Below, piece by piece: positions 12,503 to 16,181 of a stretch of DNA of 26,957 nucleotides (the first letter of the stretch is position 1; every line of letters starts with the position of its first letter). The position numbers and the translations under genes were made by a program. The stretch is taken from NCBI GenBank assembly GCA_035270865.1, contig DATESK010000149.1, forward strand, positions 1-26,957, read 5' to 3'. A model generated the notes under the pieces. It saw only the letters and a program-made list of their open reading frames with translations. It was not told the DNA's origin and did no database searches. This DNA is from Clostridia bacterium (GTDB taxonomy: Bacteria > Bacillota > Clostridia > Christensenellales > CAG-917).

Positions 12503-13303
12503 ATGAAAATCATTGATACACATTCACACATCTATCCTCAAAAAATTGCCCTAAAGGCGAAAGATAATATAGGCAAGTTTTATTCAATTAGAATGACTGG
12601 AGTTGGTGCGACAGCGGAAGACCTTATCGCAAGCGGCGAAAAAATAGGCGTGGAAAAATTTGTTGTGCATTCCACAGCCACCAAAAAAGAACAAGTTAAA
12701 AGTATCAATAATTTTATCATTGACGAGACGCAAAAACATTCTGAATTTATCGGTTTTGCAACTCTGCATCCTGATATGACGGAAGCCGAAGTACAAATGG
12801 AAACAGAGAGAATTTTAAGCGCGGGACTTAGAGGTCTAAAACTGCATCCCGATTTCCAAAAATTTTGTGTTGATGATGAAAAGGCATTTAAAATTTATGA
12901 AGCATGCGAAGGAAGACTTCCGATTTTGTTTCACGCAGGGGATTCCAGATACGAGTACTCCTCACCCGAAAAGATTGTGGGTATAGCTAAAGTCTTTCCT
13001 AAACTAACAATTATCGCAGCGCATTTTGGCGGATATACCAGGTGGGACGAAACCTTAATTTACAAAGAAGTAGACAATGTTTACTTTGACACTTCGTCTA
13101 CGCTTTTCAAATTACCTGCCGATAGAGCAAAAAAAATTATTATGGAGTTAGGCTGTGAGAGATTTATGTTCGGAGTAGATTTTCCGATGTGGAGACACGA
13201 TGACGAACTAAAAAGATTTTTGGCGGTGGGGCTAAATGACGAAATCAACGAAGCCGTGCTTTCCAAAAACGCTATGCGCATATTAAATATCAGCGAAAAT
13301 TAA
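12503..13303 (+). CDS. Amidohydrolase-family metal-dependent TIM-barrel hydrolase (266 aa), substrate unknown
   Basis: IDTHSH (HxH), GLKLHP, LFHAG, AAHFGG, DTSS and FGVDFP motifs of the Amidohydro_2 type. Confidence 0.85.
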   Translation: MKIIDTHSHIYPQKIALKAKDNIGKFYSIRMTGVGATAEDLIASGEKIGVEKFVVHSTATKKEQVKSINNFIIDETQKHSEFIGFATLHPDMTEAEVQMETERILSAGLRGLKLHPDFQKFCVDDEKAFKIYEACEGRLPILFHAGDSRYEYSSPEKIVGIAKVFPKLTIIAAHFGGYTRWDETLIYKEVDNVYFDTSSTLFKLPADRAKKIIMELGCERFMFGVDFPMWRHDDELKRFLAVGLNDEINEAVLSKNAMRILNISEN

Positions 13304-13345: not shown

Positions 13346-13374
13346 AACAGTTGATTGCTAGCTCACATAGTATA
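13346..13374 (+). promoter_or_regulatory. Putative mother-cell sigmaK-type promoter
   Basis: AACA (13346-13349), 16 bp, CATAGTATA (13366-13374), matching mACm-N16-CATANNNTA. Lies ~20 nt before the AGGAGGA RBS. Confidence 0.6.
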
Positions 13375-13407
13375 TAACAGAGCGATATGCTCTAGGAGGA
13401 TACTATT

Positions 13408-13584
13408 TTGGGCTTTAATCAATGTTGTTGTGAAGAGAAGAAGGAAGAAAGAAAGGAAAGCTGCTGTTGCTGTGTTATCAAATGCTGTCGTCCACAACCT
13501 CGTCCGACTCCGCCCCCAACATGCTGCTGCTGCTGTTGCTGCGAGAAGAAGGAAAGAAAAGATGAATGTGACGGAAGAGACTAA
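13408..13584 (+). CDS. Unannotated 58-aa Cys-rich microprotein MGFNQCCCEEKKEERKESCCCCVIKCCRPQPRPTPPPTCCCCCCCEKKERKDECDGRD
   Basis: Hand translation: AGGAGGA (13394-13400), 7 nt, TTG start, TAA at 13582-13584. 17 of 58 residues are Cys, using both TGC and TGT codons. Absent from the ORF track because it is shorter than 60 aa. Confidence 0.8.
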   Translation: MGFNQCCCEEKKEERKESCCCCVIKCCRPQPRPTPPPTCCCCCCCEKKERKDECDGRD

Positions 13585-13654
13585 CGACTAATTGCAAACA
13601 CCGTACAAAGAGCTAAAAGAATGAAATACCTTGGTAAACGCTGTAATATCAGCA

Positions 13655-13674
13655 ACTTGGGCATTTGCCCAAGT
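13655..13674. other. Perfect 8-bp hairpin downstream of the Cys-rich gene
   Basis: acttgggc-attt-gcccaagt with no U-tract; possibly a 3' stabilising stem or weak terminator. Confidence 0.4.
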
Positions 13675-13958
13675 ACATATTGAAAACAAACTAAATTAAA
13701 AGACAGCAACATCGCAATTAAAAAATATTTTCGAAATTCATATAAAACCCTAATTAAAAACAAAATCCTAACCAAAATAAAATTATAGTTAAAAAATATA
13801 GTCGAAATTAAGTAATAAAATATAAGATTACTTTTGTTTTTGCTTTGGATTTCAAAAGTTTTAGTGTAAACTGAGGTTTAATATATATTTTACTACAAAT
13901 AATGATATGGATTAACTTATATAAATAAAATAGTACAATTTGGTACACAAAGGACAAT

Positions 13959-16181
13959 TTGAAAACATTCTCAGAACTTAATATCAAGCAGGAAATTAAA
14001 GACGCCATAATCGAAATGGGCTTTAGTGAGCCCACCCCGATTCAAGGGGAAATCATACCTATAATACTAGAGGGCAAAGATTGTTTGGCGCAGGCGCCGA
14101 CAGGAACGGGAAAGACTTGCGCGTTTGGAGTCCCTATCGTAAATATGGTAGACACTAAAAATCCGTCTGTGCAAGCGGTAGTGCTTTGCCCTACGCGCGA
14201 ACTTGCAATGCAGACAGAAAACGAACTAAAAAAACTGGCAAAATTTATGGTAGGAGTACGCATTCTAGCAGTTTACGGCGGTCAACCAATAGAACGGCAA
14301 TTAGCGGGAATCCGCAAAAAACCGCAAATTATTGTCGGCACTCCGGGACGAATTATTGACCACTTACGCCGCCGCACGCTAAGACTTCAAGACGCAAAAA
14401 TGGCGGTGCTAGACGAGGCGGATGAAATGCTGAATATGGGCTTTCGCGATGACATTGATTCTATACTTTCGCAAATGCCTGACGAGCGTCAAAGTATGCT
14501 GTTTTCCGCAACAATGCCCAAAGAAATCCTTGAAATTTCAATGGAATACCAACATAATCCCATTTCCATAAAAACCACAATTTCTGGCGAGGATATGCCC
14601 CCCATAACTCAATATTATGTCAAACTTAAAGAAACAACAAAGTATGACGCGCTTTTGCAGATAATAAAGGACAAGGACTACAAACTTGTGCTTGTATTCA
14701 CCAATACCAAACACAAGGCGGGAGAACTTGACGAGCAACTTCAAGCAGACAACTATTTGTCCGCCGCTTTGCACGGAGATTTGCGCCAGAAAGTCCGTGA
14801 TACCGTTATGCGGAGTTACCGCGACAGAAAGTTGAATATTTTAGTCGCAACCGATGTTGCCGCACGCGGAATTGATGTCGAAAATATCGAAGCAATATTT
14901 AACTACGATGTGCCACTTGACGAAGAATACTATATTCACCGTATTGGCAGAACGGCAAGAGCTAACAAAACAGGGGTGGCGTATTCCTTTGTTACCGCCC
15001 GTGATATTCACAAACTGAATTTCTATGAAAAACTGACAGGTTCGCCAATTAACGAATTAAGACTTGCAGGAATAAGCGAGGATAAATTGAACAAATCAAG
15101 ACGAAAAGAAGACACAGGTAAAAAGTTTTTCTTAAATGTGGGTGCAAAAGACGAATTGAACGAAAGCAAGATTGCAAATTTTGTTATTTCAAAAACTCAA
15201 ATTGTTGAAGATGACATCGAAGCTATCAAGATTTTGGACATCTTTTCCTTTGTTACGGTAAGAAAAGAAGTAGCAGACGAAATGCTAACATTAAACGGCG
15301 AACGCTTTGCAAACCGCAGACTTGCAGTAGAAACCGCCGAAGAATTGCCTAGAGGCGGAAGTGAAAGAGGCTCAAGAGGCGGAAGCGAAAGAGGCTCAAG
15401 AGGCGGAAGCGAAAGAAGTTCTTCGAGGGGCGGAAGCTCACGGGGTGGAAGTGAAAGAAGTTCACGGGGCGGAAGTGAAAGAGGCTCAAGAGGCGGAAGT
15501 TATTCTAAAGATGATAAGCCGAGAAGCGGAAGTTCGCGAGGTTATTATTCTAAGGATGAAAAGCCCAGAAGCGAAAGAACAAGCGATAATGAGAGCATGT
15601 CTGTAAATTATGTAATTAACGAATACGGCACAAAAGTTGCCACAAAAGAATACGGCGACAGACCAATCAAAAAAGACAGCAACGGAAATTACAAGCCGAG
15701 AACAGAGGGCGAATATAAACCGAGAAGCGAAGGTGGTTACAAGCCTAGAACAGAAGGCGGTTACAAGCCGAGAAGTGAAGGTGGATATAAACCCAAAACA
15801 GAAGGTGGCTACAAACCCAGAACCGAAGGCGGATATAAGCCTAAAACTGAAGGCGGTTACAAACCTAGAACAGAGGGCGAGTACAAACCTAGAACAGAGG
15901 GCGAGTACAAACCCAGAACCGAAGGCGGTTACAAACCCAAAACCGAAGGCGGTTACAAACCCAAAACCGAGGGCGGTTACAAACCTAGAACAGAGGGCGA
16001 GTACAAGCCGAGAAGTGAAGGTGGATATAAACCCAAAACAGAAGGCGGAAAATCTACAACAGGTGGCGCGGGCGCAGATTATCGCAAATTTAGAACTGGT
16101 GGCACGGCAAAGAAAAAATCCCCGACCGTTACTTTTGGAGATAATAAACCAACAAGAAAGAATAGTAAGCCAAAATATTAA
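13959..16181 (+). CDS. deaD: DEAD-box RNA helicase (DeaD/CshA-like) with DbpA-type RNA-binding domain and long low-complexity tail (740 aa)
   Basis: Q motif GFSEPTPIQ, APTGTGKT, PTRELA, TPGR, DEAD, SAT, TDVAARGID and HRIGRTAR. FFLNVGAKD..IKILDIFSFV resembles the DbpA RBD. TTG start. Confidence 0.93.
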   Translation: MKTFSELNIKQEIKDAIIEMGFSEPTPIQGEIIPIILEGKDCLAQAPTGTGKTCAFGVPIVNMVDTKNPSVQAVVLCPTRELAMQTENELKKLAKFMVGVRILAVYGGQPIERQLAGIRKKPQIIVGTPGRIIDHLRRRTLRLQDAKMAVLDEADEMLNMGFRDDIDSILSQMPDERQSMLFSATMPKEILEISMEYQHNPISIKTTISGEDMPPITQYYVKLKETTKYDALLQIIKDKDYKLVLVFTNTKHKAGELDEQLQADNYLSAALHGDLRQKVRDTVMRSYRDRKLNILVATDVAARGIDVENIEAIFNYDVPLDEEYYIHRIGRTARANKTGVAYSFVTARDIHKLNFYEKLTGSPINELRLAGISEDKLNKSRRKEDTGKKFFLNVGAKDELNESKIANFVISKTQIVEDDIEAIKILDIFSFVTVRKEVADEMLTLNGERFANRRLAVETAEELPRGGSERGSRGGSERGSRGGSERSSSRGGSSRGGSERSSRGGSERGSRGGSYSKDDKPRSGSSRGYYSKDEKPRSERTSDNESMSVNYVINEYGTKVATKEYGDRPIKKDSNGNYKPRTEGEYKPRSEGGYKPRTEGGYKPRSEGGYKPKTEGGYKPRTEGGYKPKTEGGYKPRTEGEYKPRTEGEYKPRTEGGYKPKTEGGYKPKTEGGYKPRTEGEYKPRSEGGYKPKTEGGKSTTGGAGADYRKFRTGGTAKKKSPTVTFGDNKPTRKNSKPKY
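15351..15500 (+). repeat. Coding repeat RGGSERGS-like, 7 RGG units
   Basis: agaggcggaag(t/c)gaaagaggctca 24-bp units with variants. Confidence 0.9.
15690..16049 (+). repeat. 15 x 24-bp coding tandem repeat, YKP[RK][TS]EG[GE]
   Basis: Counted 15 in-phase units from tac at 15690 to the last unit starting at 16026; many synonymous differences between units. Confidence 0.95.

What the first reader, a model, noticed from the sequence alone, without database searches (positions are those of the whole stretch)
13346..13674. Hidden 58-aa polycysteine microprotein with its own sigmaK-like promoter
Seen: perfect AGGAGGA RBS, TTG start, 17 of 58 residues Cys in runs of 3, 4, 2 and 7, an internally duplicated C-C-C-E-(E)-K-K-E-(E)-R-K motif on either side of a Pro hinge (RPQPRPTPPPT), an upstream AACA-N16-CATAGTATA and a downstream hairpin. 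The ORF track instead shows a shadow frame. Established: sigmaK drives late mother-cell coat and exosporium genes, many of them Cys-rich and disulfide cross-linked. Inference: most likely a new small spore-surface cross-linking protein; a metallothionein-like metal binder is the main alternative. No RiPP-modifying enzymes are nearby.
Basis: partly seen in the sequence, partly recalled or inferred. Interest (0 to 1): 0.8.

Follow-up and report, generated by a model that had tools for sequence, protein, structure and literature searches.

The report
Polycysteine spore-surface microprotein gene, missed by callers
A real but unannotated 58-residue protein, almost one third cysteine, sits behind a late-sporulation (sigma-K type) promoter in an uncultured Clostridia bacterium, in the genomic slot where a sister species encodes a BclA/ExsF-like spore-surface protein. 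It is therefore most likely a small cross-linking component of the spore's outer layers.

Summary
The 58-codon ORF is at 13408-13584. It has 17 Cys, an AGGAGGA ribosome-binding site, a TTG start, AACA-N16-CATAGTATA upstream and a strong hairpin downstream.

It is a real gene, not a chance frame in a (TGC)n repeat.
- A second species of the genus (Logan contigs) has a 64-aa homologue in the same frame, with the same promoter, leader, RBS, TTG and hairpin.
- All indels are whole codons.
- Synonymous differences pile up in the Cys frame: 15, against 2 and 6 in the other two frames.
- A strain of the same species differs by two synonymous SNPs and one Cys codon.
- Gene callers call nothing here, or the shadow frame. 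This is one reason protein databases return nothing.

The sporulation reading is supported indirectly.
- The genome encodes SigK, SigE, SigG and SpoIVA.
- The dpaAB operon has the identical AC-N17-(TCA)CATAGTATA element.
- In a third species the same cassette drives a 253-aa Cys/Pro-rich protein. Its C-terminal domain folds like BxpB, ExsFA and BclA.
- Across the family, BclA-like proteins carry short Cys-rich N-termini that resemble this peptide.

No expression data exist, so the function remains inferred. The other look-alikes this scan had noted elsewhere were unrelated low-complexity matches.

The parts
13346..13349 (+). -35-like AACA (AC, then 17 nt, then the -10)
   Evidence: Identical AAACAG in the sister species L018. 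Not conserved at this spacing in G001.
13366..13374 (+). -10 element CATAGTATA of sigma-K type (CATAnnnTA)
   Evidence: Invariant in strain L023, species L018 and species G001. The same TCACATAGTATA with AC-N17 precedes dpaA-dpaB in this genome.
13379..13393 (+). Conserved short 5' leader with small inverted repeat AGAGC-GATAT-GCTCT
   Evidence: AGAGCG-N-TATGCTC is conserved in three species. T13393A is seen in the contigs of all four runs laid.
13394..13400 (+). Ribosome-binding site AGGAGGA
   Evidence: AGGAGG plus TACTATT spacer is conserved in L018 and G001, and the start codon sits at the homologous base.
13408..13584 (+). CDS of the 58-aa polycysteine microprotein (TTG start, TAA stop)
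   Evidence: 64-aa homologue in the same frame in L018/L024/L025/L026 and 57-aa allele in L023. Synonymous excess only in this frame. dN 0.23-0.35 with saturated dS.
13655..13674 (+). Conserved stem-loop after the gene (8-bp G+C-rich stem, variable loop), probable 3'-end or terminator structure without a U-tract
   Evidence: fold. Unique in the genome. The stem is conserved and the loop differs in L018 and G001, where it follows the 64-aa and 253-aa genes.

Best explanation
The ORF at 13408-13584 is a genuine monocistronic gene, restricted to one genus. It encodes a 58-aa cytoplasmically made protein with 29% Cys. It is most likely transcribed late in sporulation in the mother cell by sigma-K RNA polymerase from AC-N17-CATAGTATA. 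The transcript would have a leader of roughly 27 nt and a strong RBS, and it would end at the conserved hairpin. The peptide is then deposited in the outer spore layers (coat or exosporium). There its four Cys runs would form many intermolecular disulfide, or possibly thiolate-metal, links after mother-cell lysis. The Pro hinge and the K/E/R blocks would act as spacer and solubiliser. In evolutionary terms it occupies the expression cassette that in a sister species drives a Cys/Pro-rich protein with a BclA/BxpB/ExsFA-like C1q-fold head. It resembles the Cys-rich N-terminal module of the family's BclA-like proteins, so it is best seen as an anchor-only, headless derivative. Shown: it is coding, under purifying selection, with a conserved regulatory cassette, a promoter shared with dpaAB, and a spore-surface fold in the syntenic gene. 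Inferred: the timing of expression, the localisation and the cross-linking chemistry.
For: Coding. A homologue in the same frame exists in a second species, with identical RBS, TTG position and hairpin. All indels are whole codons, and codon differences are 15 synonymous to 23 nonsynonymous in the Cys frame, against 2:34 and 6:30 in the other frames. dN is 0.23-0.35 while dS is saturated. A conspecific strain has two SNPs, both synonymous only in this frame, plus one Cys-codon indel. Three further metagenome strains have a 3-nt length difference in the masked repeat core, inferred from contig coordinates. Regulation. Promoter and leader are 58/63 identical between species, although the neighbouring gene has dS of about 4. 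The genome has SigK (301.9 bits against cut-off 252), SigE, SigG, SpoIIGA and SpoIVA, and gerA lies in the window. Only 5 of the 67 motif hits in the genome sit just before a strong RBS and ORF. The other four are dpaA-dpaB (identical TCACATAGTATA; DpaB 259 bits against cut-off 156), a CotJC-like Mn_catalase protein, a 213-aa protein with a faint coat-protein hit, and a murG-like gene. Experimentally verified SigK promoters of exosporium genes in B. thuringiensis have the same form (CAC-N16-CATATGTTA) and leaders of 24-33 nt (PMC4750369). Spore-surface context. In G001 the same -10, leader, RBS, start and hairpin flank a 253-aa Cys/Pro-rich protein. The best PDB fold matches of its C-terminal domain are BxpB, ExsFA, F-BclA, C1q and BclA. 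Relatives have a Cys-rich N-terminus, collagen repeats and Pfam BclA_C hits. The peptide has no signal peptide or hydrophobic segment.
Against: There is no transcript or protein evidence: no RNA run was listed as holding the stretch. The number of motif hits next to genes (5) does not exceed that of scrambled control motifs (1-4), so the promoter argument rests on which genes carry it and on its conservation. The -35 AC is not kept at the right spacing in G001. The resemblance to BclA-type N-termini is low-complexity and cannot be proven homologous. No BclA_C-type partner was found in this genome, which is 88% complete. The second CCC-EKKERK copy is not conserved in the sister species. The organism is an anaerobe, so disulfides could form only after release.
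Confidence: 0.6

Rival explanations
1. It is a metallothionein-like thiolate metal binder (Zn, Cu, Cd or an Fe-S-like cluster). It would either load metal into the spore or buffer metal and redox state, and would not act as a structural cross-linker.
For: 29% Cys, small size and no hydrophobic core, as in metallothioneins. In an anaerobe's reducing cytoplasm free thiols would favour metal binding. This reading is compatible with a sporulation promoter.
Against: No Pfam or NCBIfam metallothionein hit at permissive thresholds. The Cys lie in uninterrupted runs of 3-7, not in the C-x-C or C-x-x-C spacing typical of metallothioneins (own knowledge), and there is no His. The run length varies between strains (6 or 7 Cys) and species (4 Cys), which does not suit a defined cluster geometry. 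The syntenic and family relatives are spore-surface proteins.
Confidence: 0.13
2. It is a decaying remnant of a BclA-like gene that lost its stalk and head. It would still be transcribed and perhaps translated, but would have no function of its own.
For: G001 has a full-length 253-aa protein in the same cassette. The short form lacks any folded domain. Its C-terminal third evolves fast. Nothing with a polycysteine tract in an open Cys frame was found in the family genomes searched, and the peptide and its cassette were seen only in this genus.
Against: The frame is intact in two species whose neutral sites are saturated, and in every strain seen. The synonymous excess and low dN are specific to this frame. 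The RBS, start and promoter are 92% conserved. Amidohydrolase identities (75.8, 76.8 and 71.9%) do not show that the short form is derived.
Confidence: 0.12
3. It is a cysteine-sensing leader peptide. Ribosomes would stall in the Cys runs and so control a downstream gene, as in the mycobacterial polycysteine short ORFs.
For: Seven consecutive Cys codons resemble attenuator control codons. Polycysteine short ORFs are proven cysteine-responsive attenuators in mycobacteria (bioRxiv 10.1101/834739).
Against: The next gene is a DEAD-box helicase 375 nt away, with its own separately conserved upstream region, and it has no known link to cysteine metabolism. The hairpin has no U-tract and no alternative pairing with the ORF was evident. 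The same cassette expresses a 253-aa protein in G001. The residues between the Cys runs are conserved at the protein level.
Confidence: 0.04
4. It is not a gene: a chance open frame in a (TGC)n/(GAA)n low-complexity intergenic stretch. Alternatively the 78-aa shadow frame is the real product, or it is a RiPP precursor.
For: Trinucleotide repeats keep several frames open, and slippage gives 3-nt indels without selection. The protein searches found nothing: 5.8 billion clusters by word index, 1.84 billion representatives by HMMER, and the ESM Atlas. Gene callers pick the shadow frame.
Against: The frame-specific synonymous pattern argues against it. The shadow frame is truncated differently in the sister species. 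The protein databases lack this frame because it was never called. No radical-SAM, lanthipeptide or other maturase lies within the window, whose neighbours are gerA, an amidohydrolase, a helicase and his genes. There is no SCIFF or other Cys-rich peptide family hit in NCBIfam.
Confidence: 0.06

Closest known systems
BclA-family exosporium nap proteins (N-terminal targeting domain, collagen-like stalk, C-terminal BclA_C/C1q-fold head) and the ExsFA/BxpB basal-layer proteins of the Bacillus cereus group
   Same: The syntenic gene in sister species G001 uses the same promoter, leader, RBS and hairpin, and its C-terminal domain matches BxpB, ExsFA, F-BclA and BclA by fold. Family relatives have collagen repeats and BclA_C hits plus short Cys-rich N-termini that resemble this peptide. 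The promoter form is sigma-K type, as for bclA, bxpB and exsY (PMC4750369).
   Different: The 58-aa protein has neither a collagen stalk nor a C1q-fold head. It would correspond at most to the N-terminal module. Its Cys density (29%, runs up to 7) is far beyond that of the N-termini of its relatives.
Cysteine-rich spore coat and exosporium morphogenetic proteins (B. subtilis CotY/CotZ, B. cereus ExsY/CotY, C. difficile CdeC and CdeM)
   Same: These are Cys-rich proteins made in the mother cell late in sporulation, and they build outer spore layers. ExsY is described as a homologue of the cysteine-rich CotY/CotZ and is SigK-dependent (PMC4750369). CdeC and CdeM show that anaerobes use them too (papers listed; details from own knowledge).
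   Different: There is no detectable sequence similarity. Those proteins are 150-400 aa with folded domains and roughly 5-10% Cys (own knowledge). This one is a 58-aa low-complexity peptide with homopolymeric Cys runs.
Polycysteine leaderless short ORFs of mycobacteria (cysteine-responsive attenuators)
   Same: They are unannotated short ORFs with consecutive Cys codons (10.1101/834739).
   Different: Those are leaderless, very short, and operonic with cysteine-metabolism genes, and they act through ribosome stalling. This ORF has a strong RBS and its own hairpin, its non-Cys residues are conserved, the downstream gene is unrelated, and the cassette carries a 253-aa structural protein in a sister species.
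Metallothioneins (bacterial SmtA/BmtA type) and eukaryotic cornified-envelope or keratin-associated high-sulfur proteins
   Same: Small size, about 30% Cys, and Pro-rich spacers. CC-x-P motifs recall cross-linked envelope proteins of skin and hair (own knowledge; analogy only).
   Different: There is no family hit, no C-x-C or C-x-x-C spacing and no His. The eukaryotic proteins are unrelated, so any likeness is convergent.

Membership tests
Sigma-K (late mother-cell) regulon | Promoter of the form AC, 16-17 nt, CATAnnnTA at a suitable distance from the start codon | tested here: met
   AC-N17-CATAGTATA ends 33 nt before the TTG. It is conserved in sister species L018. In G001 only the -10 is kept.
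Sigma-K (late mother-cell) regulon | The organism has sigK, and the same element precedes orthologues of known SigK-dependent genes | tested here: met
   SigK scores 301.9 bits against cut-off 252. dpaA-dpaB is preceded by AC-N17-TCACATAGTATA, and a CotJC-like gene by AC-N17-CATATAATA. That spoVF (dpaAB) is SigK-dependent in B. subtilis is established knowledge, not tested here.
Sigma-K (late mother-cell) regulon | Transcription that depends on SigK during sporulation | not testable with these tools
   No RNA run was listed as holding the stretch. The organism is known only from metagenomes.
BclA family (Pfam PF18573 BclA_C plus collagen-like region) | C-terminal BclA_C/C1q-fold domain | tested here: not met
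   The 58-aa protein ends 20 residues after the Pro hinge, with 13 residues left after the last Cys run, and has no Pfam hit. The domain is present in the syntenic G001 protein.
BclA family (Pfam PF18573 BclA_C plus collagen-like region) | Collagen-like G-x-y repeats | tested here: not met
   None are present in the peptide. They are present in family relatives L045 and L051-L056.
BclA family (Pfam PF18573 BclA_C plus collagen-like region) | Homologous N-terminal module | tested here: inconclusive
   The alignment shows shared M-F-C-N..CC and CC-(P/R)-x-x-P-R-P motifs with L040, L051 and P0001, but only 16-25% identity in low-complexity sequence.
CotY/CotZ/ExsY and CdeC/CdeM Cys-rich coat or exosporium proteins | Sequence membership in their families | tested here: not met
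   No Pfam or NCBIfam hit at E up to 1 and 10 respectively. No HMMER hit among 1.84 billion representatives.
Bacterial metallothionein (SmtA/BmtA) | Family profile match with C-x-C or C-x-x-C and His ligand pattern | tested here: not met
   No Pfam hit. The Cys lie in contiguous runs, and there is no His. Metal binding itself cannot be tested here.
Polycysteine leader-peptide attenuators | Short ORF immediately upstream of, and structurally coupled to, a cysteine-related gene | tested here: not met
   The downstream gene is a DEAD-box helicase 375 nt away, with its own conserved upstream block. The cassette carries a 253-aa protein in G001.
RiPP precursors (SCIFF, Cys-rich radical-SAM substrates, lanthipeptides) | Precursor family match and an adjacent maturase | tested here: not met
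   No NCBIfam hit. The neighbours are gerAA-AB-AC, an Amidohydro_2 gene, a DEAD-box helicase and hisZGDC.

The most novel reading that the evidence does not exclude
The peptide is a free-standing anchor-only polycysteine module. It would be released into the mother cell in bulk and would act as the glue or cap of the spore's outermost layer in this genus. That is a minimalist replacement of a BclA-type nap: dozens of thiols per peptide, via disulfides or metal-thiolate bridges, would give anaerobe spores an oxygen-triggered self-hardening, redox-buffering shell. Slippage-prone Cys-run length would tune the cross-link density between strains.
Probability: 0.15. Interest if true: 0.7.

Novelty: new variant of a known kind. 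Interest (0 to 1): 0.5.

Why it matters
The case shows concretely how a conserved, selected microprotein gene is missed. Low-complexity triplet repeats mislead gene callers into a shadow frame, so protein databases cannot contain it. If the spore-surface role holds, it adds an extreme member, 29% Cys with homopolymeric runs up to seven, to the Cys-rich proteins that build the outer layers of spores. It also documents turnover between a full BclA/ExsF-like protein and a headless Cys module inside one conserved sigma-K cassette in poorly known, small-genome Christensenellales-type anaerobes from manure, wastewater and food fermentations. Finally, it gives a first view of the SigK promoter consensus (AC-N17-CATAGTATA) in that lineage.

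Tried and rejected
1. Protein homology searches with the 58-aa sequence all came back empty: Pfam, NCBIfam, the 5.8-billion word index, HMMER on 1.84 billion representatives, and the ESM Atlas. Exact look-ups of the ORF, the shadow ORF and an antisense ORF were also empty. The frame is simply never called.
2. tblastn-type search in 108 family genomes gave only chance hits with E of 0.006 or higher.
3. A scan of JGI metagenome contigs with the leader pattern found nothing.
4. The fixed-spacing leader pattern in the family found only G001. It even missed the window itself, because of a 1-nt indel.
5. A search for five or more consecutive Cys codons in the family gave about 110 hits. All those examined were other frames of real genes. 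For example, the G002 'CRCRCCCC' tracts are antisense to NGNSN tails of a 423-aa membrane protein.
6. The AF2 single-sequence model of P0001 was unusable, with pLDDT 36. Sequence searches against the PDB gave noise. Only the model built from an alignment worked.
7. Enrichment of the SigK motif next to genes, compared with scrambled motifs, was not significant by count.
8. Read laying masked the repeat core (13434-13551). Strain variation there could be read only as a length difference.
9. dS could not be estimated for the ORF because it is saturated.
10. Upstream regions of distant BclA-like genes do not uniformly show the full motif. Only L042, L052 and L055 do.

Full report
**Observation**

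- AGGAGGA lies at 13394-13400 and the TTG start at 13408.
- The 58-codon frame ends at 13584. It has 17 Cys in runs of 3, 4, 2 and 7, plus one single Cys.
- A CCC-E-K/R-rich motif occurs on each side of the hinge RPQPRPTPPPT.
- AACA-N16-CATAGTATA lies at 13346-13374.
- A G+C-rich hairpin lies at 13655-13674. It folds at -19.2 kcal/mol with z = -4.8, and it has no U-tract.
- A longer 78-aa ORF overlaps in another frame.

**Context**

The window carries gyrB and gyrA, a Pro-rich ORF, and gerAC-AB-AA on the minus strand. An Amidohydro_2 gene follows at 12503-13303, then the finding. After it come a DEAD-box helicase (13959-16181) and his genes. The genome is a 1.2-Mb, 88%-complete MAG. The named relatives of its proteins are 'Clostridia bacterium' and 'Christensenellales bacterium'. 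It encodes SigK (301.9 bits against cut-off 252), SigE, SigG, SpoIIGA and SpoIVA, so it has the sporulation programme.

**Is it a gene?**

Direct protein searches found nothing. This is partly an artefact. Neither this frame nor its neighbours is in the 15-billion-protein collection. In the sister species the public call is the shadow frame.

I reached relatives through synteny instead, by taking close homologues of the adjacent amidohydrolase and fetching their contigs.

- **Second species.** Its amidohydrolase is 76% identical (Logan contigs L018, L024, L025, L026). It has, in the same slot, AAACAG-N-CATAGTATA, the same leader, AGGAGG, the TACTATT spacer, a TTG at the homologous base, a 64-codon Cys-rich frame and the same hairpin.
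- **Codon pattern.** In the codon alignment all indels are whole codons. Of 56 aligned codons, 18 are identical, 15 differ synonymously and 23 nonsynonymously. Read in the other two frames, the same nucleotide alignment gives 2:34 and 6:30. In the first 38 codons the ratios are 12:11 against 0:21 and 4:17.
- **Selection.** dN is 0.23-0.35 while dS is saturated. The neighbouring amidohydrolase has dS of about 4. Promoter plus leader are 58/63 identical against that background.
- **Strains.** A strain of the same species (ENA food metagenome, L023) has a 57-aa allele with one Cys codon fewer. Its two SNPs are both synonymous in the Cys frame and nonsynonymous in the shadow frame. Contigs from three other metagenomes have 115 nt instead of 118 nt in the masked repeat core, an in-frame difference inferred from contig coordinates. 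One of them has an amidohydrolase only 94.7% identical.
- **Caveat.** Slippage in a triplet repeat gives 3-nt steps anyway, so the indels alone prove little. The frame-specific synonymous pattern and the conserved start are the real evidence.

I put the probability that this is a translated gene under selection at about 0.85-0.9.

**Promoter**

AC-N16/17-CATANNNTA occurs 67 times on both strands of the genome. Five of these lie within 80 nt before a strong RBS and an ORF of 40 aa or more. Scrambled motifs give 1-4 such cases, so the count itself is not significant. What matters is which genes carry the motif.
- This ORF.
- dpaA-dpaB, with the identical TCACATAGTATA and N17. DpaB scores 259 bits against cut-off 156. 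DpaA is the best match but scores below its cut-off.
- A CotJC-like Mn_catalase/ferritin-like protein.
- A 213-aa protein with a faint hit to a spore-coat family.
- A murG-like gene.

The form agrees with experimentally mapped SigK promoters of exosporium genes in B. thuringiensis: CAC-N16-CATATGTTA for bclA, and leaders of 24-33 nt for bxpA, bxpB, cotB and exsY (PMC4750369). That spoVF (dpaAB) depends on SigK in B. subtilis is established knowledge. Expression here is inferred, because no RNA run was listed as holding the stretch.

**Spore-surface link**

In the same-genus genome G001 the slot between the amidohydrolase and the helicase holds a 253-aa ORF, P0001. It follows the same ACATAGTATA, leader, AGGAGG and TACTATT spacer, with ATG at the homologous base (81% identity over 53 nt, E = 7e-9). 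The same CTTGGGC-loop-GCCCAAGTACATAT hairpin follows it.

- **N-terminal part.** About 115 residues are Cys/Pro-rich, with CCPPPCPPCPP-type motifs.
- **C-terminal part.** Residues 115-253 have distant relatives in the order and family. Three of them hit Pfam BclA_C at E between 1e-7 and 5e-6, below the gathering threshold. One of those three, and several of the family relatives found later with the profile, carry collagen G-x-y repeats.
- **Fold.** An AF2 model built from that alignment has pLDDT 80-93 over the domain. Its best PDB matches are B. anthracis BxpB, B. cereus ExsFA, F-BclA, C1q and BclA, with TM 0.5-0.59. ESM Atlas features agree.
- **N-termini of the relatives.** Almost all begin with a short Cys-rich N-terminus, for example MFFNWFNNPCCPMRPTPC or MTCFTKCGNGCCPNSPRP. 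These resemble MFCNPCCEE and KCCRPQPRP of the microprotein. The alignment is low-complexity and inconclusive.

The 58-aa protein therefore looks like a headless, stalkless version of such a protein. With a profile of the head domain, no copy was found in this genome or in G002. In G002 the slot holds a PaaI-type thioesterase instead. The slot is thus variable, while the cassette is confined to the genus. Amidohydrolase identities (75.8, 76.8 and 71.9%) do not resolve whether the short or the long form is ancestral.

**Mechanism proposed**

The steps below are inferred unless marked otherwise.
1. SigK-dependent transcription in the mother cell.
2. Efficient translation from a strong RBS.
3. No export signal, so the peptide is deposited from the mother-cell cytoplasm onto the developing spore.
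4. The Cys runs form intermolecular disulfides, or thiolate-metal bridges, once the spore meets oxidant.
5. The Pro hinge and the K/E/R blocks keep the peptide extended and soluble.

**Rivals**

- A metallothionein-like binder is not excluded (0.13).
- A decaying remnant is made unlikely by the selection signal (0.12).
- A Cys-sensing leader peptide, as in mycobacteria (10.1101/834739), does not fit the downstream gene or the G001 cassette (0.04).
- A non-coding stretch, the shadow frame or a RiPP precursor is disfavoured (0.06).

**Novelty and score**

Cys-rich proteins of the outer spore layers made by SigK are a known kind. A conserved 57-64-aa peptide with homopolymeric Cys runs, sharing a cassette with a BclA/ExsF-like protein, has no described counterpart that I could find. 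I therefore rate it a new variant of a known kind, with interest 0.5. The function remains untested and the gene is confined to one uncultured genus.

Noticed in passing
L011:2515-3276 (G001, same genus): A 253-aa orphan protein. Its N-terminal half is Cys/Pro-rich (CCPPPCPPCPP, CPPCVPCCPPCCPPCP) and takes the place of the usual collagen stalk. It is fused to a C1q/BclA/BxpB-like head. No sequence homologue was found in the 5.8-billion-protein search apart from itself.
   Followed up: yes
L051-L056, L040-L048 (other genera of the family and order): A family of BclA-like proteins: a short Cys-rich N-terminus, collagen G-x-y repeats and a BclA_C-like head scoring below the Pfam threshold. It was found in 8 of 18 family genomes sampled. 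Many have TACATA about 10-15 nt before the RBS. Two (L052, L055) have AC-N17-CATAGGATA further upstream. The role of the proximal TACATA is unexplained.
   Followed up: partly
G000 contig C213:9620-10258 (L038:171-809): A 213-aa protein beginning MSFCNN. It lies behind a sigma-K-like AC-N16-CATAAATTA and a strong RBS, and has only a faint NCBIfam hit to a BMQ_0737-type morphogenetic spore coat protein. It is a further candidate coat protein.
   Followed up: partly
G000 contig C155:944-2350 (L037): The dpaA-like and dpaB operon has its -10 (CATAGTATA) only 6 nt before GGAGG. This implies a very short leader or a transcription start within the RBS.
   Followed up: no
window 13522-13542 and L023: The terminal Cys run is length-polymorphic: 7 codons here and 6 in the ENA strain. 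Three more metagenome strains are 3 nt shorter somewhere in the masked core 13434-13551, most likely here. Slippage in the TGC/TGT run is the probable cause.
   Followed up: partly
L018:3907-4170, L024, L025, L026: Public gene calls in the sister species annotate an 87-aa shadow-frame ORF over the promoter and the first third of the real Cys-frame gene. This is a systematic miscall caused by the triplet repeats.
   Followed up: yes
window 13840-13958 and L011/L018 equivalents: A separately conserved block (GCTTTGGATTT...TTAGTGTA.ACT...AATATATATTTTA) lies upstream of the DEAD-box helicase in all three species. It is probably that gene's own promoter or 5' UTR.
   Followed up: no
L090, L091 (G002): Long TGC/TGT-rich tracts are antisense to Asn/Gly/Ser (NGNSN) low-complexity tails of real proteins, for example a 423-aa membrane protein. 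They give spurious polycysteine ORFs.
   Followed up: yes
   Followed up: partly
L012:786-1196 (G002): In the third genome of the genus the slot between the amidohydrolase and the helicase holds a PaaI-type hotdog thioesterase in place of the Cys-protein cassette. The slot is therefore a site of gene turnover.
   Followed up: partly
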